Below, one piece after another: positions 1 to 9,403 of a stretch of 9,403 nt of DNA; position 1 is the first letter of the stretch, and each line of letters begins with the position of its first letter. The translations under genes were made by a program, and so were the position numbers. The stretch is from a virus (Duplodnaviria; Heunggongvirae; Uroviricota; Caudoviricetes): IMG/VR virus record IMGVR_UViG_2531839146_000012; one strand, 5' to 3'. The notes under the pieces are model-generated. The model saw only the letters and a program-made list of their open reading frames with translations, did not search any database and was not told the origin of the DNA.

Positions 1-395
<395 letters not shown>

Positions 396-461: not shown

Positions 462-620
462 TTAAAGTCGTTTAGTTAACATCGCCATTGCTTGAGCAAT
501 AATTGCAACAGCGTCCATCTCTTCACTGGAAGCGATGCAAATGCGGTAACTAATAGCCACAATGAATACATCAATAACGAGAAAGTGAATAGTGTGAAGA
601 TGTTTTGAAAGTAAATGCAT
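462..620 (-). CDS. Small hydrophobic hypothetical protein (52 aa), below the ORF-track cutoff
   Basis: Minus-strand ATG (620-618) with GGAGG 5 nt upstream (complement of CCTCC 626-630); translation MHLLSKHLHTIHFLVIDVFIVAISYRICIASSEEMDAVAIIAQAMAMLTKRL; stop at 464-462. One predicted hydrophobic helix. Confidence 0.3.
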   Translation of the reverse strand: MHLLSKHLHTIHFLVIDVFIVAISYRICIASSEEMDAVAIIAQAMAMLTKRL

Positions 621-713: not shown

Positions 714-744
714 AATCTACGTCAACCAATATTTGATGTAGATT
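714..744. promoter_or_regulatory. Near-perfect 12-bp inverted repeat (AATCTACGTCAA-N7-TTGATGTAGATT), operator-like
   Basis: Arms at 714-725 and 733-744 with one mismatch, read directly from the sequence. Confidence 0.3.
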
Positions 745-1014
745 TAATTTTCTTTTAAAAACAATATGTTGTTATTTGTTGAATTTTGGGGTTAGGTTGT
801 TTTTTGAACGTTTTCATCAAGTGTAAAGATACGTTTAGCCTTCATAGTGAGTTCAGTTACTGTCTTTTTCTCTGAAATCGGCGCAAACGTGATCATCGCT
901 TGAGGTTGCTGCTCTTACTTCTCAAATTGTGATGGAGAACGATAAAGGTTAGAGGGCACTTTTATTTTTTTAAGCAAGTGTATAGCATAAGAATAATCTA
1001 AAAAGGGAGGTTAT

Positions 1015-1566
1015 ATGCGCAGGTCTGCATTTGTGAGGATGATGATTTTTACAACGTTGTTTGTAGGGGGAACTTCTACCGCAGTTGCTAAAAACTGCAA
1101 AAAAGGAATACCTTGTGGTAACTCGTGTATAGCTGTTGGTAAGACGTGCCGGATTGGCTCTTATGCCCCTTCATCTTATAAAAATCATTCATACTCTTAT
1201 CCTTCATCCTCTATTCGAAGCTCGCAATCAAATAATTCACGAAAAACTGAAGGAGTGAAAACGACTCCTGCTGCCAAAAATTATCTTTGCCAATACTCTA
1301 TTGCATCAATCGAAAACGGACGTTTAGGGGCATTACGTGTTCAGGGATACGCACAAGTAACTTTATATGCAGATAGCTTCAAGGCTAACAGATTAAATGG
1401 AACATATTTGATATCGCCAAAACTGAATGCTAACGGCAAGTTTATGATGGCAGATGATAAAAGCAAGGTTTATGCTTATGATTCTTGGCTATTAAATTTT
1501 GCAATAAGCGATCGTATCACAAGAACGACAGAACAATGGGATCGATGTAAGCTCAATCAAAAATAA
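1015..1566 (+). CDS. Secreted cysteine-rich hypothetical protein (183 aa) with Sec-type signal peptide
   Basis: GGAGG-containing RBS (1005-1010) before ATG 1015. N-terminus MRRSAFVRMMIFTTLFVGGTSTAVA looks like a signal peptide (basic n-region, hydrophobic core, AVA cleavage motif), followed by a 4-Cys cluster CKKGIPCGNSCIAVGKTC, a Ser/Tyr-rich linker and a C-terminal domain with two more Cys. Confidence 0.75.
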   Translation: MRRSAFVRMMIFTTLFVGGTSTAVAKNCKKGIPCGNSCIAVGKTCRIGSYAPSSYKNHSYSYPSSSIRSSQSNNSRKTEGVKTTPAAKNYLCQYSIASIENGRLGALRVQGYAQVTLYADSFKANRLNGTYLISPKLNANGKFMMADDKSKVYAYDSWLLNFAISDRITRTTEQWDRCKLNQK

Positions 1567-1584
1567 CAGTTAGAGAAGCTCTTG

Positions 1585-1641
1585 TAGAGGCATTATTGAG
1601 TTATTGGTTTTAATATTTTTGTGCCTCTATGGGCTTTTTTT
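1585..1641 (+). terminator. Putative terminator region after the secreted-protein gene
   Basis: TAGAGGCA (1585-1592) pairs with TGCCTCTA (1622-1629), followed by GGGC and a 7-T run (1635-1641). The loop is long, so the structure is non-canonical. Confidence 0.35.
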
Positions 1642-1798
1642 GCCTTTTTGCAAAGTAGGAGAGAGCACAGGAATCGTTAAAATTAATTATTGGGGTATTT
1701 AAGGTTATTTTCAGGTGGTTTAAGGGTATTAAACTTGATTTAATTGATTAAAATATAAACAGATAGTCCTGTATCTTATTGATTTATAAGGTTATTTT

Positions 1799-1855
1799 TA
1801 AATAAAGGTAAATAAAAAATAAATAGCCATAAATAGCTATAAATACATCTAAATA
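1799..1855. repeat. Six TAAATA motifs at 10-11 bp (helical) phasing
   Basis: TAAATA starts at 1799, 1809, 1820, 1830, 1840 and 1850. Confidence 0.6.
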
Positions 1856-2275
1856 CCTTTATCCCTTCCCTTATGGCTAGATTGCGAGAAGTGCTTAACG
1901 CGATTTTCAGCGCCCCCCGATCTGGAAAATCCAGAATCCCCAAATATCAGCAAGGAATTTTCTTGCGTAATCAACATCGTTTTTACCTATTAAATCATCA
2001 CACAGAAAGCCTTTCTGTAATGTCTCTCACTAAACTTTCACTAAACACGAGAATGATCGGTTTTATGTCGGATCAGATGCTAGAAACAGCACCACGTCTC
2101 ACAAGGGCTGTAAGCGATGAAACCAGTGTTTATGCGGGTGCAGGTCAAAATATGGGCCAAAATCCATTTAACATAATAATCGTAATATGCACTAAGGAAC
2201 ACATAGAACGCCTTGAATTGATGTATCAGGGGAAAAGTGATGGATTTTTTACGTAGGAGCACGAGAGGGCTTCTG

Positions 2276-2303
2276 TTGACTTTTGTGTGCTATGAAATAT
2301 AAT
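2276..2303 (+). promoter_or_regulatory. Putative sigma70 promoter firing into the repeat region
   Basis: -35 TTGACT (2276-2281), 16-bp spacer, -10 TATAAT (2298-2303). No ORF follows. Confidence 0.4.
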
Positions 2304-2337
2304 TAAAGGTTTTTTGTTTTTATCGTGTGATGTAGTG

Positions 2338-2780
2338 GATTACACAGGGGGATAGATTAAATGGTGTTCTGTTTATACAGGTTTATTTGTTAGATCAACA
2401 ATTTGGCATTTCTAAACAGATGTTTGAACGTTGCCAAATGTATTGACAACACAAGAAAAGGGCTTGCTATGCCACGCATTACACGGAATAAGGCTGTAAA
2501 AACAAAATAAATTTTAAAATTTGCACAAACGAGAAAACTCGTTCAGAAACAAGCAGAACAATTTTTAGCCAACAATTTCTGATGGTGCTCTGTAAACCGC
2601 ATTACACAAGGCTTTGCGAAAGTGATGTAAAAGTGAAGAAAGCTAACATTGCACTTTGAAGCCATTTTTCATTGGATTTTTTAGTAGGGAATTACACAGG
2701 GAATAGAGAGCATTATTCTATGATTTACACAGGGAATATAGGGGATTATGGCACACACATAGAAAGGCATTACACAGAGT
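2338..2780 (+). repeat. Dispersed direct repeats of G(C/G)ATTACAC(A/G)GG (iteron-like), six copies
   Basis: ATTACAC cores at 2339, 2478, 2601, 2691, 2769 and a TTTACAC variant at 2724, each preceded by G(G/C/A) and followed by (A/G)(G/A)G. Confidence 0.6.
2401..2439. promoter_or_regulatory. Nested imperfect palindrome ATTTGGCA...AAACA-GA-TGTTT...TGCCAAAT, operator-like
   Basis: Outer arms 2401-2408 and 2432-2439 are exact reverse complements; an inner palindrome AAACAGATGTTT lies between them. A TTGACA at 2443-2448 follows. Confidence 0.35.
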
Positions 2781-2808
2781 GAGTGCTATGTGATGATTGG
2801 TAGTAACG

Positions 2809-2843
2809 GTAGGTCACTGTGAGCTACCCCCACAGAATTCTGT
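2809..2843. repeat. Isolated copy of the 22-bp repeat core (GGTAGGTCACTGTGAGCTA) followed by CCCCC and a perfect 12-bp palindrome ACAGAATTCTGT
   Basis: 2809-2827 matches the tandem unit at 3028-3135; the palindrome at 2832-2843 is flanked by TACCCC on both sides. Confidence 0.5.
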
Positions 2844-2883
2844 TACCCCTATCAAGTCTGATACCCGATAAGTATAAATAACA

Positions 2884-2981
2884 CCTAGGAAATGATTTCC
2901 GATCTATTTAGGAAGTAACCTAGGAAGTGGTTTCCTACCTACTTAGGAAATGAGTTCCTACCTACCTAGGAAATGAGTTCC
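2884..2981. repeat. Four CCTAGG-GGAAAT-G-A(T/G)TTCC palindromic sites, the last three at 23-bp pitch
   Basis: GGAAATGATTTCC at 2888-2900 is a perfect odd-length palindrome; GGAAGTGGTTTCC at 2923-2935; GGAAATGAGTTCC at 2946-2958 and 2969-2981. Confidence 0.6.
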
Positions 2982-3006
2982 ACCAATACTATAATTAAAT
3001 AATATA

Positions 3007-3022
3007 AATAATATTCTTTATA
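3007..3022. repeat. Exact 16-bp direct repeat AATAATATTCTTTATA, left copy; right copy at 3184-3199
   Basis: Identical 16-mers at 3007-3022 and 3184-3199 bracket the 22-bp tandem array and its AT-rich flank; both continue with similar (C)TATAT sequence. Confidence 0.55.
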
Positions 3023-3027
3023 CTATA

Positions 3028-3135
3028 TAGCTCACTGTGAACTAGGGGGGGTAGTTCACTATGAGCTAGGGGGTAGGTCATAGTGAGCTAGGGGGTAGGT
3101 CATAGTGAGCTAGGGGGTAGGTCACTGTGAACTAC
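3028..3135. repeat. Five tandem 22-bp repeats (unit about TAGGTCATAGTGAGCTAGGGGG), each with a palindromic TCAC-N-GTGA core
   Basis: Units start near 3028, 3050, 3074, 3096 and 3118 with 22-bp period; the first unit is in inverted orientation (AGCTCACTGTGAACTAG). Followed by an AT-rich stretch with (TA)6 at about 3203-3214. Confidence 0.65.
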
Positions 3136-3324
3136 AATAAGACTATTAATAAAACTATATTAGATTATTAATTAGATCATAATAATAATATTCTTTATAT
3201 CTATATATATATATGATCTTTTGCCTTCCGGCGTTAGCTTCACTCTCTGGCAAGCAGCCTTACTCCGCTACCTTTCGGGCTTCGTGGCTGGCCCGTTCCG
3301 CTCACACCGAAAGCAAAGCGTTAC

Positions 3325-3366
3325 TTTCTTCGTGTAACTATCGTGGCGGTAACGCCCACGAAGAAA
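3325..3366 (+). other. Stable hairpin with GNRA-type tetraloop (GGCG-GTAA-CGCC) nested in a 9-bp outer stem
   Basis: TTTCTTCGTG (3325-3334) pairs with CACGAAGAAA (3357-3366); inner GGCGGTAACGCC at 3345-3356. Sits in a locally GC-richer segment (about 3216-3420). Confidence 0.35.
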
Positions 3367-3600
3367 TACTATTGCGCTGTGCGCAGTAAGAGTAATCACC
3401 TAACCAATCATACTGATTGCTTATGTGTTAACTCTCTCTACTCTTAATTACCCTCCTACATATAATAACTCTGTTATTCTCTGTAGTTGTGTAATTACTC
3501 GAAGAGAGAGCGGCTAAAGCTCAATTACACTCTGCTTTCCTCGTGTAATTTCACTAAGCCTCAATACAATTCCACTTCCTACTTCTGTAGTCGTGTAATT
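3330..3600 (-). repeat. Inverted copies of the ATTACAC motif (CGTGTAAT) plus a 20-bp direct repeat CT(C/T)CTGTAGT(T/C)GTGTAATT
   Basis: GTGTAAT at 3489-3495, 3543-3549 and 3593-3599; GTGTAAC variant at 3333-3339; one direct ATTACAC at 3524-3530. The 20-mers at 3479-3498 and 3582-3600 are near-identical. Confidence 0.5.
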
Positions 3601-3640
3601 GTTTTCGGTGGAAAAGCCAGAGGCGACACCGAAAGAGAAT

Positions 3641-3710
3641 TCTGATCTTATTAATCTTATCTATCTTAGTTAATCTTCTTACTTATCTTACTTTATCTAC
3701 TTTATTATTA
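3641..3710. repeat. Pyrimidine-rich cluster of TTATCT / ATCTT motifs (AGATAA on the minus strand)
   Basis: TTATCT at 3657-3662, 3683-3688 and 3693-3698, plus several ATCT variants. Confidence 0.4.
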
Positions 3711-4220
3711 ATAATAGCTTTATAAGCTCTCTGACGCAAGAAACAGCATTCAGGAAGGGAATCACCTTAGAAAAGGTGTTCTTTGCGTCATAATGTGTTT
3801 TATGAGGGATTCAGAGGTGTTTCATAACAGGAATGTATAGAGGATACTTTAGGTAATTAAAAATAAGGGGTCTAAATGCTTCTCTAACAGCATTAAGCAG
3901 GGTAGGGAATGGAAACGCATTGCCTACACATATAGGCTCACTACAGAGCTTTACAGAGCGTTTTATAAAGTGACTCTCTATCTTATATCTACCATCACCT
4001 TTTCATATACCTAACAAATACAAAATAAGCCCCTTAAATAAGCCTCTGGCGAGCTAAACAGCCATTAGATAAGGGAATGTATTGCTTTTATCAAAATCTC
4101 GTTAGAACGCGTTTTAGAGCGTTTTAGACAATAATGAAGAATAGCACTACACAGAAGAGCACGAATAGCTAAGAAAAAATGTAAGTACATGAAAAAGATC
4201 AGATTTTTTGTGAAAAGGTA

Positions 4221-4249
4221 TTGACAAATGTTTCTTTATATGTAATAAT
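4221..4249 (+). promoter_or_regulatory. Putative sigma70 promoter of the early operon
   Basis: -35 TTGACA (4221-4226), 17-bp spacer, extended -10 TGtAATAAT (4241-4249). It lies about 110 nt upstream of the first gene. Confidence 0.5.
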
Positions 4250-4359
4250 AGGTATTAGAGGGACAGAAAAACATTCTTCTCTAAATAATCAAAATCAATG
4301 CACTTTGAAGCCGTCAGGCTTGCAAGGTGTTTTTCTTTTAACTGAATAAGGAGTTTTTT

Positions 4360-4548
4360 ATGAAATGGTTTACCCCGGAGCACGTCATCTCGGCATTTAA
4401 AAAAGGTGAGCTTACACGCCATCAAGTAGTAATGAATCGTAATATGGCAAGGAGTCGAGGTTATCCAGAGCGAGCAGCTTGCTTCAATGAAGCACTCAAG
4501 ATTATTGATGAATTAAGAAAAAATGAAAAAGAATCTGAAACAGAGTAA
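4360..4548 (+). CDS. Small hypothetical protein (62 aa), first gene of the early operon
   Basis: AAGGAG RBS at 4348-4353, 6-nt spacer, ATG 4360. No family recognised. Confidence 0.6.
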   Translation: MKWFTPEHVISAFKKGELTRHQVVMNRNMARSRGYPERAACFNEALKIIDELRKNEKESETE

Positions 4549-4786: not shown

Positions 4787-5479
4787 ATGATTAATCAACT
4801 AACTTTTACAAAACACTATGACACGTTTGATAATGTATCAAAGATTTATTCTGATAAATTCCCTCAAGGAAAAGATTTAGATCTATTACATATTGTGCTT
4901 TATTTTCGATTCCTTAGTTATCAGGAAAACAACCTTAATTGTTATGAAAGTCACGAAACATTAGCTAAGATTTTTAAGTCTTCAGCGTCAACAATTAAAC
5001 GTAAGATAAACGATCTTAAAGAGATGGGATTATTAGAAACATCCCCACATCCTGATCCGTATATTTCATCTTTGATTTACAATGCTCTCCCTCTCACAGA
5101 TGCACATATTACTCCCCCAGGAGAATCATCACTCTCTGATCTTTCTGAGGCAGAAGAAGCACAGGAACAACCTAAAGGCCATAAACAGCCTTCTTTTGAT
5201 GTTCTTGATGATGATTGGGATGCGCCTTTACCGTGGGAGACGGAAGAAACACCTGTTTCATCAAGTGAAAAGGTAGCTAATGATAATGAGGAGGATGTGT
5301 TAGAGAATTTTGCCTCTCTTATCATCCGGGAGAAACACAGAAGAACAGGAGGATCATCATTTATAGACTTTGCAAATTCACTGGCTTATAGACACGGGCT
5401 AAAACGACCAAATGGTATTGAGGCATATTTTGCTAAGAAACATCCCAAAGTATATGAAGACTTTGATATTCCATTTTAA
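4787..5479 (+). CDS. Winged-HTH protein (HTH_36 / replisome-organizer-like N-domain), acidic linker, C-terminus ending EDFDIPF
   Basis: AAGGAG at 4774-4779, ATG 4787. The N-terminal ...CYESHETLAKIFKSSASTIKRKINDLKEMGLLE matches the usual winged-HTH pattern of phage/plasmid replication organizers. An acidic low-complexity linker (DDDWDAPLPWETEE...) follows; the last residues are YEDFDIPF, stop 5477-5479. Confidence 0.8.
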   Translation: MINQLTFTKHYDTFDNVSKIYSDKFPQGKDLDLLHIVLYFRFLSYQENNLNCYESHETLAKIFKSSASTIKRKINDLKEMGLLETSPHPDPYISSLIYNALPLTDAHITPPGESSLSDLSEAEEAQEQPKGHKQPSFDVLDDDWDAPLPWETEETPVSSSEKVANDNEEDVLENFASLIIREKHRRTGGSSFIDFANSLAYRHGLKRPNGIEAYFAKKHPKVYEDFDIPF

Positions 5480-7584: not shown

Positions 7585-8613
7585 ATGATTCTAGGTAATG
7601 ATTACGTTGATTTAGCTCCTCTGTTCTCTGCGCATAGCACTAGAAATTATCTGCTTTCTACTCTTGATTTTACGGATTCTGTAGGGGTTACATCTCATAA
7701 AGTGGCTGTTAGCCAACTGGTGGAAACTAACGAATCTCTGTTCAACAAAGAAACCTCTCGTTTCTCTTCTGAACATAACGTGACTAAGCGTGAACAAGGT
7801 AAAGAATATCTGATTGAAATCCCGTACTTTTTAAGGGAAGACCTGATCAAACCGCAGGACGTGCAAGGCAAACGTAAACCTGGCACTGATTTTCAGGAAA
7901 CACTCACTGATATTTATGCTGACTATGTTGCTAAACACAATGTTGCATTCCAGCGTACAAAAGAGAGCGTGTTGGCGGCTTCTTTGTTCTCTGGCAAAAC
8001 TTACACGCCTAAAACTGATGATGTTCTTATCGAATGGGGCAAGCTGTTTAACGTATCAGCTATGAAAGCCACTGTGAACGCTTCCAGCACTGACACCACG
8101 AAGATTTTTAAAGAATTTGATCAGATTGCTACTGACATTATCGAGAAAGCACAAAGCCAGGCGGCTGCTGTAGAGCGTATTGTTGTTTTCTGTAAGCCGG
8201 AAGCCTTCTCTGCAATTCGATTCTCTGCTGGTATGGCAAACGCATTCCAGTATGTAAGCCCACTGGAAGAGGGGAACGTTGTGTATCAGCGTCGTGACCT
8301 GCTGCCAGGGGTGACAGCGTTCACTATTCCAGGAACTAACATTGATGTTATTAAACTGGTAGATCCGCTACACCTGGCACATATGACCGCAGACGCTGTA
8401 GCGATTCCGAAGTTTGCTAAAGGCTCTAACGTATATCAGAACATCTACGGGGCTGCTTCCAGCACTTTTGAACTGATTAATGCCGATCCTACTGAGGTCT
8501 ATAGCTACAGCTATGAATCTTCTCGTGGTGATGCTGTGAACGTTGTTACAGAGAATAGCCAGATGGTTGTTAACCACGGTGTAGGCTTCTCCGTTCAAAT
8601 CACTGTTAAATAA
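7585..8613 (+). CDS. Putative phage major capsid protein, T7 gp10-like (342 aa)
   Basis: AAAAGGA RBS, ATG 7585. By eye, the segment AVERIVVFCKPEAFSAIRFSAGMANAFQYVSPLEEGNV aligns with T7 gp10 ...ADRVFYCDPDSYSAILAALMPNAANYAALIDPEKGSI (shared R, C-x-P, SAI, M-x-NA-x-x-Y, P-x-E-x-G) at a similar position in a protein of near-identical length (342 vs 345 aa; T7 sequence from memory). Followed by a strong terminator. Confidence 0.6.
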   Translation: MILGNDYVDLAPLFSAHSTRNYLLSTLDFTDSVGVTSHKVAVSQLVETNESLFNKETSRFSSEHNVTKREQGKEYLIEIPYFLREDLIKPQDVQGKRKPGTDFQETLTDIYADYVAKHNVAFQRTKESVLAASLFSGKTYTPKTDDVLIEWGKLFNVSAMKATVNASSTDTTKIFKEFDQIATDIIEKAQSQAAAVERIVVFCKPEAFSAIRFSAGMANAFQYVSPLEEGNVVYQRRDLLPGVTAFTIPGTNIDVIKLVDPLHLAHMTADAVAIPKFAKGSNVYQNIYGAASSTFELINADPTEVYSYSYESSRGDAVNVVTENSQMVVNHGVGFSVQITVK

Positions 8614-8630
8614 TATTTAACGTGTAATAG

Positions 8631-8664
8631 AGGCGTGGCGTGTATTCACGCTTCGCCTTTTTTT
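8631..8664 (+). terminator. Rho-independent terminator after the capsid-like gene
   Basis: AGGCG-TG-GCGTG / loop TATT / CACGC-TT-CGCCT, followed by a 7-T run (8658-8664). Confidence 0.7.
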
Positions 8665-8698
8665 ATTTATTTTTTAAATTTTGAGAGGTGATTAAAAT

Positions 8699-8916: not shown

Positions 8917-9183
8917 ATGTTAGAAATTAACACTTCTAAAATTAAGAACACAGTTACATTTAGTGTAGATAAAGACAGCTTGAAAAAAGCGAAAGACTCT
9001 ATTACAGGCTTAAAGGAATTCGCAGAAAACATCAAGCCAGCTAAATTAAGGTTTGATAATGTCACTAAAGGCTATAAGAAAGCACAAAGTGAAGTAGATA
9101 AGATTACTAAAAAGCAAGCCCAGGCTGATAAAGCTAATGCTAAAGCACAATTAGCCGCTCAACGTGTAGTTGCAAGAGGGTAA
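8917..9183 (+). pseudogene. Lys/Ala/Gln-rich (coiled-coil-like) protein gene truncated by the IS1 insertion
   Basis: AAGGGGA RBS, ATG 8917. The frame runs into the IS1 terminal inverted repeat starting at 9179, and the stop TAA (9181-9183) is supplied by the IS1 end GGTAATGAC. Translation ends ...AQLAAQRVVARG. Confidence 0.5.
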
Positions 9184-9403
9184 TGACTCCAACTTATTGA
9201 TAGTGTTTTATGTTCAGATAATGCCCGATGACTTTGTCATGCAGCTCCACCGATTTTGAGAACGACAGCGACTTCCGTCCCAGCCGTGCCAGGTGCTGCC
9301 TCAGATTCAGGTTATGCCGCTCAATTCGCTGCGTATATCGCTTGCTGATTACGTGCAGCTTTCCCTTCAGGCGGGATTCATACAGCGGCCAGCCATCCGT
9401 CAT
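9179..9403 (-). mobile_element. IS1 right end (partial; continues beyond the window)
   Basis: 9179 onward reads GGTAATGACTCCAACTTATTGATAGTGTTTTATGTTCAG..., the reverse complement of the canonical IS1 right terminus including the GGTAATGACTCCAACTTATTGAT inverted repeat. Confidence 0.9.
9194..9403 (-). CDS. insB: IS1 transposase InsB, C-terminal fragment
   Basis: Track [72 protein letters not shown] is the recognisable C-terminus of IS1 InsB; stop at 9196-9194. Confidence 0.9.

What the first reader, a model, noticed from the sequence alone, without database searches (positions are those of the whole stretch)
1015..1566. Secreted protein with an N-terminal 4-Cys knot, Ser/Tyr-rich linker and C-terminal domain
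A signal peptide followed by CKKGIPCGNSCIAVGKTC suggests a disulfide-stabilised periplasmic or extracellular module. In an AT-rich island this could be an effector, adhesin-like factor, enzyme inhibitor or superinfection-exclusion protein. No family was recognised by eye.
Basis: partly seen in the sequence, partly recalled or inferred. Interest (0 to 1): 0.4.

Follow-up and report, generated by a model that had tools for sequence, protein, structure and literature searches.

The report
Secreted two-module protein on phage-like island
This is a real, conserved accessory gene of a small phage-like island in E. coli; it encodes an exported protein that joins a tiny, widespread, unnamed four-cysteine unit to a beta-barrel domain shared with prophage proteins, and its function is unknown but probably lies in the cell envelope.

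Summary
Window 1015-1566 (+) is a 183-aa gene with a GGGAGG ribosome-binding site, a strong hairpin terminator after the stop, and protein-level purifying selection.

The product has four parts:
- a Sec-type signal peptide (aa 1-25, AVA|KN)
- a cationic module with cysteine spacing C-x5-C-x3-C-x6-C (aa 26-49)
- a Ser/Tyr-rich disordered linker (aa 50-87)
- a confidently predicted all-beta domain (aa 88-180, pLDDT ~95) bracketed by two conserved cysteines

The 4-Cys unit is an undescribed, widespread mini-module (671 clusters). It sits directly after the signal peptide in most carriers. It occurs alone as 41-42-aa precursors, in tandem, or fused to SH3b, SNase, Excalibur and sunset-like domains.

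The gene lies about 1.4 kb inside the thrW-proximal end of a 13-kb integrated, iteron-bearing, satellite-like island. It is the first gene of a variable cargo arm that holds SieB in Klebsiella. A distant Morganella homologue lies in a prophage.

Best reading, inferred: an envelope-tethered binding protein serving phage or competitor conflict. "Knot" is unsupported. Interest is moderate to low.

The parts
714..744 (+). Terminator-like hairpin upstream, about 270 nt before the start codon
   Evidence: Consensus scan: 12-pair stem followed by a T-rich tail. This is a consensus match only.
1005..1010 (+). Ribosome-binding site GGGAGG, four bases before the ATG
   Evidence: Read directly from the sequence.
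1015..1566 (+). Coding sequence, 183 aa plus stop. The RefSeq protein at the matching position in E. coli FORC 064 is WP_001323651.1, 'hypothetical protein'.
   Evidence: ORF list. RefSeq annotation. 69 homologues. Purifying selection.
1015..1089 (+). Signal peptide, aa 1-25, with predicted SPase I cleavage at AVA|KN
   Evidence: n/h/c-region features. The same architecture is kept in homologues although the sequence diverges (pN 0.36-0.49). No lipobox. The RR is not in Tat register and is not conserved.
1090..1161 (+). Cationic 4-Cys mini-module, aa 26-49, KNCKKGIPCGNSCIAVGKTCRIGS (C-x5-C-x3-C-x6-C; 5 K/R, no D/E)
   Evidence: Invariant C, C, G, C, I, C across 149 module copies. 671 clusters at E <= 1e-3. 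pN 0.10-0.13 with saturated synonymous sites. AF2 with a 129-sequence alignment gives pLDDT 76-84 and a beta-hairpin at 32-34/37-39. No Pfam, NCBIfam or PDB sequence match.
1162..1275 (+). Ser/Tyr/Pro-rich low-complexity linker, aa 50-87
   Evidence: 29% Ser, 11% Tyr. pLDDT < 50. Fastest-evolving part (pN 0.39-0.58) and variable in length. A YSYPSSS core is kept in the Enterobacteriaceae homologues.
1276..1563 (+). C-terminal all-beta domain, aa 88-183 (nine strands, aa 88-180), bracketed by conserved Cys92 and Cys178, with a conserved SDR...TEQW..C motif
   Evidence: AF2 pLDDT 93-97. phrog_2578 and phrog_14768 at 1e-17. Nearly invariant columns. Homologous domain after a signal peptide in Klebsiella phage ST11-VIM1phi8.1 and in representatives P0094-P0101 and P0138.
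1569..1643 (+). Intrinsic terminator: long hairpin followed by a U-run, starting 3 nt after the stop
   Evidence: RNA fold dG -28.3 kcal/mol, z -5.0.

Best explanation
The gene is a self-contained accessory ('moron'-type) gene. It is the first gene of the variable cargo arm of a ~13-kb island integrated at tRNA-Thr thrW. The island has its own iteron origin, replication initiator, lambda-E-type capsid protein and tail-like genes.

The product is exported by Sec and cleaved after AVA25. That gives a basic 17.6-kDa periplasmic protein (pI ~9.7) with three parts.
1. A ~22-residue cationic mini-module whose four invariant cysteines most likely form two disulfides.
2. A ~40-residue flexible Ser/Tyr-rich linker.
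3. A small beta-barrel-like domain, probably closed by a Cys92-Cys178 disulfide.

Proposed mechanism (inferred, not shown):
- The 4-Cys module acts as a portable anchoring or targeting unit. It would bind a conserved anionic component of the envelope or matrix.
- It would hold the barrel on a flexible tether.
- The barrel would bind a specific envelope-located target. The most likely target is a protein of an incoming phage or competitor, so the role would be superinfection exclusion or inhibition. That would benefit the island and its host.

Shown here: gene reality, the module boundaries, selection on two modules, the mobile-element location, and the autonomy and spread of the 4-Cys unit.

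Inferred: export, disulfides, the tether logic and the target.
For: Gene and modules.

Mobile-element association:
- The island is bounded by 20-bp direct repeats of the thrW 3' end, and the gene lies ~1.4 kb inside.
- Homologues occupy the same first position of equivalent islands at other chromosomal sites in Enterobacter, Klebsiella, Serratia and E. coli relatives.
- The 33-37%-identical Morganella homologue lies in an E217-like prophage next to an antiterminator Q gene.
- The gene is found in only 98 of 5,426 complete E. coli genomes.

The cargo arm downstream is mosaic. In Klebsiella the next gene carries Pfam SieB, superinfection exclusion protein B.

The C-terminal domain also occurs after a signal peptide in a Klebsiella temperate-phage gene. 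That gene sits among Arc, Bro-N and repressor genes. The domain also occurs in secreted proteins with varied C-terminal extensions, including IalB.

Structural neighbours:
- In the viral library they are small uncharacterised phage proteins, some annotated as lipoproteins.
- In the PDB they are periplasmic or surface binding barrels such as PhiA/PliC, NHBA, HpuA and LolA.

The 4-Cys module behaves as a portable unit:
- Its first Cys is at median position 25, right after the signal peptide.
- It occurs alone as 41-42-aa precursors or as tandem pairs.
- It is fused through linkers to SH3_3/SH3_4 (32 hits), SNase (3), Ada_Zn/sunset (3), Excalibur (2) and GW (1) among 124 representatives.
- It is cationic, with 5 K/R and no acidic residue.
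- Its amino-acid sequence is nearly fixed although synonymous sites are saturated.
Against: - There is no experimental or direct computational evidence of any function.
- PADLOC, Pfam and NCBIfam give nothing.
- SieB adjacency is seen in one genus only. In the window itself the gene stands alone.
- No sigma-70-like promoter was found upstream on the + strand, so expression is unproven.
Cys-Cys distances and barrel closure could therefore not be checked.
- Three of five stand-alone 4-Cys genes lie beside metallo- or redox-protein genes. That fits a metal-binding role better than an anchor role.
- Truncated E. coli protein variants of the gene turn up (P0267, 61 aa, 21 contigs; P0040, 120 aa). 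The gene is therefore dispensable.
Confidence: 0.35

Rival explanations
1. Metal- or redox-related periplasmic protein. The four cysteines of the N-terminal module would coordinate a metal or act as a redox-active thiol centre, and the protein would buffer or deliver a metal in the envelope.
For: - Four invariant Cys, often followed by His (34% at the position after Cys4).
- A stand-alone module gene lies inside a nif cluster between nifQ and Fe-S_biosyn/nifV/feoABC.
- Others lie next to a MauG-like peroxidase plus multihaem cytochrome, and next to a RoxA-like cytochrome plus cupredoxin.
Against: - The spacing C-x5-C-x3-C-x6-C is not a classical CxxC-type metal knuckle (own knowledge).
- Two other stand-alone genes have no such neighbours.
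- Partner domains are mostly SH3b and nucleases, not metalloproteins.
- In an oxidising periplasm with DsbA, disulfides are the default (established knowledge).
- This reading says nothing about the beta-barrel or the mobile-element location.
Confidence: 0.15
2. A PliC/MliC-type periplasmic inhibitor of lysozyme or another peptidoglycan hydrolase, protecting the host from phage, T6SS or animal lytic enzymes.
Against: - No Pfam hit of any kind at E <= 10, which includes the MliC model.
- Foldseek does not list PliC or MliC among its best 50.
Confidence: 0.1
3. A host-interaction or adhesion factor displayed at or beyond the outer membrane, analogous to the barrel domains of neisserial surface lipoproteins.
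For: - The best Foldseek TM-scores are to the NHBA C-terminal barrel (6cuj, probability 1.0, TMt 0.43) and the HpuA barrel (5ee2, TMt 0.39).
- The Ser-rich linker resembles surface-protein stalks.
- The source strains are of animal and human origin.
Against: - E-values are 0.045-0.08, not significant.
- There is no lipobox, no autotransporter or other surface-export signal, and no Slam-like neighbour.
- Homologues are tied to phage-like elements, not to virulence loci.
Confidence: 0.08
4. A function in the island's own life cycle, for example modulating lysis or envelope events during helper-phage induction, rather than a benefit to the host.
For: It is the conserved first gene of the island's left arm in five genera, while the downstream cargo varies.
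Against: - It has its own terminator and a terminator-like hairpin upstream, and it is separated from the core operon by about 2.8 kb of origin region.
- The Morganella homologue lies in an unrelated prophage.
- Truncated E. coli protein variants of the gene turn up.
Confidence: 0.1
5. A decaying or non-functional ORF.
For: Truncated variants exist. No promoter was recognised.
Against: - Strong purifying selection on two modules with saturated synonymous sites.
- >= 99% identity in 98 genomes.
- An intact RBS and terminator.
- A confident fold.
Confidence: 0.03

Closest known systems
PHROG families phrog_2578 and phrog_14768 (phage proteins of unknown function), e.g. the 255-aa protein QBQ71462.1 of Klebsiella phage ST11-VIM1phi8.1
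   Same: Homologous C-terminal domain: E 1e-17 over aa 86-181, and 38% identity to the phage protein. It has the same bracketing Cys pair and SDR...TTEQW..C motif, and it also follows a signal peptide.
   Different: The phage proteins lack the 4-Cys module and linker. They carry other C-terminal extensions instead. None has a known function.
PliC/MliC/PhiA periplasmic lysozyme inhibitors
   Different: No sequence-profile match, and the similarity is no better than to unrelated barrels. This is a resemblance only.
C-terminal beta-barrels of neisserial surface lipoproteins (NHBA, HpuA, TbpB, fHbp)
   Same: Highest TM-scores among the top-listed Foldseek PDB matches (TMt 0.39-0.43).
   Different: The matches are not significant. 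There is no lipobox and no surface-lipoprotein export context.
Prophage- and satellite-encoded envelope exclusion proteins and cargo hotspots (P22 SieA/SieB, T5 Llp, Cor)
   Same: A small envelope-directed protein encoded as an independent unit at the edge of an integrated phage-like element. A SieB-family gene is the next gene in the Klebsiella island. The general concept rests on established knowledge.
   Different: No sequence or profile similarity to any of them. There is no phenotype.
Small Cys-containing accessory modules of secreted bacterial proteins (Excalibur, sunset/Ada-Zn-like, DUF3761)
   Same: Like them, the 4-Cys unit is a short Cys-bearing module that recurs in exported proteins, including SNase nucleases. 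It co-occurs with Excalibur and sunset-like domains.
   Different: It has a distinct pattern (C-x5-C-x3-C-x6-C, with PCG and CI invariant). It is only ~22 residues long, lies at the mature N-terminus in most carriers, and is not covered by Pfam or NCBIfam.
Cyclotides and other cystine-knot peptides
   Same: An eight-residue identity, G-I-P-C-G-x-S-C, with loop 1 of cycloviolacin O2 and cliotide T10. Both are small disulfide-rich peptides.
   Different: E = 0.26, which is chance level. This module has four Cys rather than six, so no knot is possible. Cyclotides are plant products. Not related.

Membership tests
Sec substrate cleaved by signal peptidase I | Positively charged n-region, 7-15-residue hydrophobic h-region, and small residues at -3 and -1 | tested here: met
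   MRRSAFVR (+3), MMIFTTLFVGG, and TSTAVA with A at -3 and -1. The same layout is kept in diverged homologues.
Sec substrate cleaved by signal peptidase I | Positive call by a trained predictor (SignalP) or experimental export | not testable with these tools
   No such predictor is available.
Bacterial lipoprotein (signal peptidase II) | Lipobox [LVI][ASTVI][GAS]C at the cleavage site | tested here: not met
   The residues before Cys28 are A-K-N. 113 of 265 module proteins have AKN there.
Tat substrate | Twin-arginine motif S/T-R-R-x-F-L-K | tested here: not met
   RRSAFV is out of register. Homologues start MGWSSLVR or MAKLKIT, with no RR.
phrog_2578 / phrog_14768 | Significant match to the family HMM | tested here: met
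   E 1.4e-17 and 7e-17 over aa 86-181.
MliC/PliC lysozyme inhibitor (Pfam MliC) | Match to the family HMM | tested here: not met
   No Pfam family at E <= 10.
MliC/PliC lysozyme inhibitor (Pfam MliC) | Eight-stranded barrel superposable on PliC or MliC | tested here: inconclusive
Neisserial surface-lipoprotein barrel (NHBA/HpuA/TbpB) | Significant structural match plus an N-terminal lipobox | tested here: not met
   Foldseek E 0.045-0.08. No lipobox.
Cystine knot / cyclotide | Six cysteines forming three interlocked disulfides | tested here: not met
   The module has only four Cys. The profile hit to cyclotides has E 0.26 over 8 residues.
Known anti-phage defence or exclusion proteins (PADLOC-DB; Pfam SieB) | Match to a defence-protein HMM | tested here: not met
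   No PADLOC family at E <= 10 and no Pfam hit. SieB is a neighbour in Klebsiella, not this protein.
Unnamed 4-Cys mini-module (defined here) | C-x5-C-x3-C-x6-C with G after Cys2 and I after Cys3, usually K-K-G-x-P before Cys2, placed after a signal peptide | tested here: met
   Window aa 28-45 fit the pattern. The invariant columns were taken from 149 copies. 671 clusters at E <= 1e-3.
Disulfide-stabilised module | Cys pairs within bonding distance, oxidised in vivo | not testable with these tools
   Model coordinates are not returned, and there is no biochemical data. AF2 gives only pLDDT 76-84 and a hairpin.

The most novel reading that the evidence does not exclude
The ~22-residue module KNC-KKG-x-PCGN-S/T-CI-x4-K-x-C could be a new, widespread class of secreted bacterial mini-domain with one conserved molecular partner.

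Two forms of this reading are open:
- an envelope- or matrix-anchoring tag, used much as a lipobox or LysM is, to position SH3b, nuclease and phage-derived domains
- in its stand-alone 20-residue form, a ribosomally made, disulfide-stapled cationic peptide with its own activity, either defensin-like or a metal or redox carrier

The window protein would then be a case of a mobile element using this tag to tether a phage-type binding barrel in the periplasm.
Probability: 0.25. Interest if true: 0.6.

Novelty: new variant of a known kind. Interest (0 to 1): 0.33.

Why it matters
If the reading is right, the gene adds an uncharacterised envelope-acting accessory protein to the cargo of a poorly described family of small capsid-encoding islands in Enterobacterales.

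It also brings to light a very conserved four-cysteine mini-module. The module occurs in hundreds of protein clusters across Proteobacteria and Desulfobacterota, and no domain database names it.

Defining what that module binds would annotate many 'hypothetical' secreted proteins at once. It could also give a compact periplasmic targeting tag.

In itself the finding is an ordinary hypothetical secreted cargo gene. Nothing here overturns current understanding.

Tried and rejected
- Pfam, NCBIfam and PADLOC scans of the protein: nothing at E <= 10.
- PDB sequence-profile searches with the C-domain and the 4-Cys profiles: only chance-level hits.
- Literature: no paper contains the motif strings or WP_001323651. 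A satellite/thrW search gave nothing specific.
- Rfam on the whole window: only a sub-threshold L20-leader hit.
- Promoter scan: no + strand sigma-70-like site upstream.
- Pseudogene hypothesis for the gene-free 2.8 kb downstream. I tested whether it holds remains of the cargo genes seen in Enterobacter. It does not (tblastn). It is an iteron origin region instead.
- Possible partnership with a LysM/Peptidase_M23 gene upstream of the homologues. Rejected. From the flanking xdh/ygeV genes and my own knowledge of the K-12 map, it is the chromosomal ygeR next to the glyU attachment site.
- Possible obligatory operon partner, the 165-aa secreted protein. Rejected, because it is absent in the window and replaced in Klebsiella.
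- Conserved neighbours of stand-alone 4-Cys genes. None is consistent, although redox or metal genes appear in 3 of 5 contexts.
Full report
**1. Observation**

The ORF at window 1015-1566 (+) exists as described: 183 aa with an ATG start.
- A GGGAGG Shine-Dalgarno sequence lies at 1005-1010, four bases before the ATG.
- Three bases after the stop codon, the RNA folds into a long hairpin followed by a U-run at 1569-1643. The fold energy is -28.3 kcal/mol, z = -5.0, and none of 200 shuffles folds as well.
- A terminator-like hairpin also precedes the gene at 714-744. The gene therefore looks like an independent unit.
- No sigma-70-like promoter was found upstream on the + strand.
- The window is AT-rich, with GC 0.31-0.47.

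**2. Is it a real gene?**

Yes.
- 69 homologues were found in a 5.8-billion-protein collection. A near-identical cluster is seen in E. coli. Proteins of 56-70% identity occur in Enterobacter, Klebsiella, Citrobacter, Kosakonia, Serratia, Yokenella and others. Proteins of 33-37% identity occur in Morganella.
- Against the Enterobacter, Klebsiella and Serratia genes, synonymous sites are near saturation (pS 0.56-1.03).
- Non-synonymous differences are only 0.10-0.14 in aa 26-49 and aa 88-183. They are 0.36-0.43 in the signal peptide and the linker.
- Selection therefore acts on the protein, and on two separate modules.
- In complete E. coli genomes the gene is rare: 98 of 5,426, always chromosomal, all >= 99% identical.
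- RefSeq calls it 'hypothetical protein', WP_001323651.1.
- Truncated E. coli protein variants of the gene turn up (P0267, P0040).

**3. Anatomy**

*Signal peptide, aa 1-25.*
- It consists of MRRSAFVR (+3 charge), the hydrophobic core MMIFTTLFVGG, and TSTAVA with Ala at -3 and -1.
- This is a classical Sec/SPase I layout. It is kept in homologues whose sequence differs (MGWSSLVRITIGTFLLAGLSFSAYA, MAKLKITAVCLVALSPLLFLSEALA).
- There is no lipobox, because A-K-N precedes the first Cys.
- The RR is not in Tat register and is not conserved.
- No later transmembrane-like segment exists.

*4-Cys module, aa 26-49.* The sequence is KNCKKGIPCGNSCIAVGKTCRIGS. The spacing is C-x5-C-x3-C-x6-C, with five K/R and no acidic residue.

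*Linker, aa 50-87.*
- It is 29% Ser and 11% Tyr, with pLDDT < 50.
- It varies in length among homologues.
- It is the fastest-evolving part.
- A YSYPSSS core is nevertheless kept in the Enterobacteriaceae homologues.

*C-terminal domain, aa 88-180.*
- It has nine beta-strands at pLDDT 93-97.
- Nearly invariant Cys92 lies in the first strand and Cys178 in the last.
- A conserved S-D-R...T-E-Q-W-x-x-C motif is present.
- That the two Cys form a barrel-closing disulfide is an inference.

The mature protein is 158 aa, 17.6 kDa, pI ~9.7.

**4. The C-terminal domain**

Pfam, NCBIfam and PADLOC give nothing. Two PHROG families of unknown function match at 1e-17.

In Klebsiella phage ST11-VIM1phi8.1 the domain (38% identity) lies in a 255-aa protein.
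- There it follows a signal peptide (MRGFITLSLLMASGVAVA|NE) and precedes an unrelated C-terminal region.
- The gene sits in an accessory block with Arc, Bro-N and repressor genes, between the tail genes.

An exhaustive HMMER search of 1.84 billion representatives gave the following:
- Only four representatives have the full two-module architecture (P0025, P0091-P0093).
- About ten have signal peptide + domain + varied C-terminal extensions.
- Two of those carry an IalB domain.

Fold searches gave no specific family.
- Foldseek against the PDB has no hit at E <= 1e-3. The best TM-scores are to the NHBA and HpuA barrels.
- In the viral structure library, four hits pass 1e-3. All are uncharacterised small phage proteins, and one is annotated 'putative lipoprotein'.
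- The afdb50 library was unavailable.

Conclusion: a small beta-barrel-like secreted domain of a phage-associated family, with no characterised relative.

**5. The 4-Cys module**

This is the less ordinary part.

*Spread and position.*
- Most of the 492 representative hits match only profile positions ~6-60, that is, the signal peptide plus the module.
- Among 149 module copies, C1, C7, G8, C11, I12 and C18 are invariant. G4 (95%), P6 (92%) and K3 (89%) are nearly so.
- The consensus is (A)KNC[KR]KG[IKQ]PCGN[ST]CI[SA]xxK[TV]C[RH][IV]G.
- The first Cys lies at median position 25, directly after a signal peptide.
- 19 of 151 proteins have two or three copies.
- A dedicated profile found 671 clusters at E <= 1e-3.

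*Autonomy.*
- The hits include 41-42-aa precursors that are nothing but a signal peptide plus one module. An example is P0311 of Magnetospirillum sulfuroxidans, mature peptide KTCNKGKPCGNSCIALTKTCRK.
- They also include 68-80-aa proteins with two modules.
- The module is therefore an autonomous unit.

*Partner domains.* Among 124 representatives these are bacterial SH3 (SH3_3 24, SH3_4 8), SNase (3), Ada_Zn/sunset-like (3), Excalibur (2) and GW (1). Most proteins have no recognised partner domain.

*Carriers.* Named carriers include Vibrio, Oceanobacter, Aeromonas, Aliidongia, Magnetospirillum, Candidatus Electronema and Pseudoalteromonas phage C5a.

*Annotation and structure.*
- Neither Pfam nor NCBIfam covers the module.
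- No PDB sequence matches. The only curiosity is G-I-P-C-G-x-S-C shared with cyclotides at E 0.26.
- No paper contains the motif.
- With a 129-sequence alignment, AF2 raises pLDDT from ~45 to 76-84 over aa 31-50 and predicts a beta-hairpin at 32-34/37-39.
- Four Cys allow at most two disulfides, so 'knot' is not justified.

*Neighbourhoods of five stand-alone module genes.*
- No constant partner appears.
- Three lie beside metallo- or redox-protein genes: nifQ/Fe-S/feoABC, MauG-like peroxidase plus multihaem cytochrome, and RoxA-like cytochrome plus cupredoxin.
- Two have no such neighbours.

**6. Genomic context**

*The island.*
- The window is part of an island integrated at tRNA-Thr thrW.
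- In strain E423 the island is bounded by 20-bp direct repeats of the tRNA 3' end, 13.2 kb apart. The gene lies ~1.4 kb inside the tRNA-proximal end.
- In FORC 064 the order is proA - thrW - IS66 - two tiny ORFs - the gene - ~2 kb without genes - core genes - integrase.

*Island content.*
- An iteron array, 22 bp x 5 at 3026-3135, with further repeats at 2883-2972 and AT-rich blocks.
- A replication-initiator-like protein at 4787-5479 (HTH_36, phrog_270).
- A lambda-E-type major capsid protein at 7585-8613.
- A tape-measure-like gene and a Dit/tail-like gene.
- A tyrosine integrase.
- No terminase or portal was recognised among the ORFs scanned or annotated.
- It looks like a satellite or a very small defective prophage.
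- In the window's genome, IS100 (window 1-~225) and IS1 (9194-9403) cut into it.

*Equivalent islands.*
- They occur at other chromosomal sites in Enterobacter, Klebsiella, Serratia and E. coli relatives. Each carries a homologue as the first gene of the same arm.
- Variable cargo follows the homologue:
  - a 165-aa secreted protein, >= 94% identical in three contexts
  - a SieB-family membrane protein in Klebsiella
  - a coiled-coil plus zinc-ribbon-like protein
  - a DUF3761 protein
  - a short integrase-like gene
- None of these is present in the window.
- The Morganella homologue lies in an E217-like prophage next to antiterminator Q and glycosyltransferase genes.

**7. Interpretation**

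Shown:
- a real, selected gene on a mobile phage-like element
- a product with the features of an exported protein
- two constrained modules joined by a disordered linker
- one module shared with secreted prophage proteins
- the other a widespread autonomous mini-unit

Inferred:
- The protein is periplasmic.
- Its cysteines are oxidised.
- The cationic 4-Cys unit anchors or targets the protein to a conserved, probably anionic, envelope or matrix component. The grounds are its position at the mature N-terminus in most carriers, the linkers that follow it, its fusion to cell-wall-binding and nuclease domains, and its near-fixed sequence.
- The barrel binds a specific target.

The location in a variable cargo arm, the SieB neighbour and the prophage relatives make a role in phage or competitor conflict the most likely one. 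Candidates are superinfection exclusion or inhibition of an incoming envelope-acting protein. I put this at about one in three.

Rivals are a metal or redox role for the 4-Cys unit, a PliC-type hydrolase inhibitor, a surface or host-interaction factor, a role in the island's own cycle, and a decaying ORF. Each is listed with its evidence in the Rival explanations section.

**8. Comparison and novelty**

The protein belongs to two unknown-function PHROGs and to no characterised family. It fails the tests for lipoprotein, Tat substrate, MliC/PliC (profile), neisserial surface-lipoprotein barrels, cystine knots and known defence proteins.

As a kind of thing it is familiar: a small secreted accessory protein on a prophage-like island. 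The domain combination and the unnamed 4-Cys module are new variants within that kind.

Interest is moderate to low. The most promising thread is the 4-Cys module.

Noticed in passing
window 1650-4360 (iterons 2808-2827 and 3026-3135; repeats 2883-2972; AT-rich blocks 2992-3022 and 3169-3214): A 2.7-kb stretch has no ORF over 60 aa and no RefSeq annotation. It holds five tandem 22-bp iterons (GGGGGTAGGTCATAGTGAGCTA) plus one distant copy, three ~32-bp repeats and AT-rich blocks. It lies upstream of a replication-initiator-like gene (4787-5479). It is probably the island's origin of replication.
   Followed up: partly
window 2403-2439; L004 10795-10831: A 37-bp sequence is 94.6% identical between the E. 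coli window and the equivalent gene-free gap of the Enterobacter island, although the flanks have diverged. It may be a regulatory or recombination site.
   Followed up: no
window 1-~225 and 9194-9403: The left end of the window is the end of an IS100kyp (IS21-family) istB gene. The right end is the C-terminus of IS1 InsB on the minus strand. That insertion cuts the tape-measure-like gene, of which ORF 8917-9183 is the remaining N-terminus.
   Followed up: partly
L001 11405-24623 (window-equivalent island); window 7585-8613: The island is 13.2 kb, bounded by 20-bp direct repeats of the thrW 3' end. It encodes a lambda-E-type capsid protein, a tape-measure-like protein, a Dit/tail-like protein and an integrase. 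No terminase or portal was recognised among the ORFs scanned or annotated. It is satellite-like or a mini-prophage. In strain E423 it lies in tandem with a P22-like prophage remnant.
   Followed up: partly
L013 5001-5129; L016 3050-3178; L018 5001-5126: Stand-alone 41-42-aa genes (signal peptide plus one 4-Cys module) lie beside metallo- or redox-protein genes. One is inside a nif cluster between nifQ and Fe-S_biosyn/nifV/feoABC in Magnetospirillum sulfuroxidans. One follows a MauG-like peroxidase and a multihaem cytochrome. One precedes a RoxA-like cytochrome and a cupredoxin. Two other stand-alone genes show no such neighbours.
   Followed up: partly
L004 8585-9082; L012 7591-8088; L019 6590-7087; L010 7595-8083: A 165-aa secreted protein, >= 94% identical across Enterobacter, Serratia and another Enterobacteriaceae genome, follows the homologues after ~23 nt. 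In Klebsiella a SieB-family membrane protein replaces it. Both are absent from the window.
   Followed up: partly
window 243-395 (+) and 462-620 (-): Two tiny ORFs (50 and 52 aa) between the attachment site and the gene are annotated in RefSeq as conserved hypothetical proteins (WP_000788776.1, WP_000550449.1). The first has no Pfam match.
   Followed up: no
window 8545-8670: A weak Rfam hit to the L20 leader (24 bits against a gathering score of 58.7, E 0.31). It is almost certainly chance.
   Followed up: no
window aa 31-38 of the protein (nt 1105-1128): GIPCGNSC resembles the GIPCGESC start of the cyclotides cycloviolacin O2 and cliotide T10 (E 0.26). This is a curiosity, not homology.
   Followed up: yes
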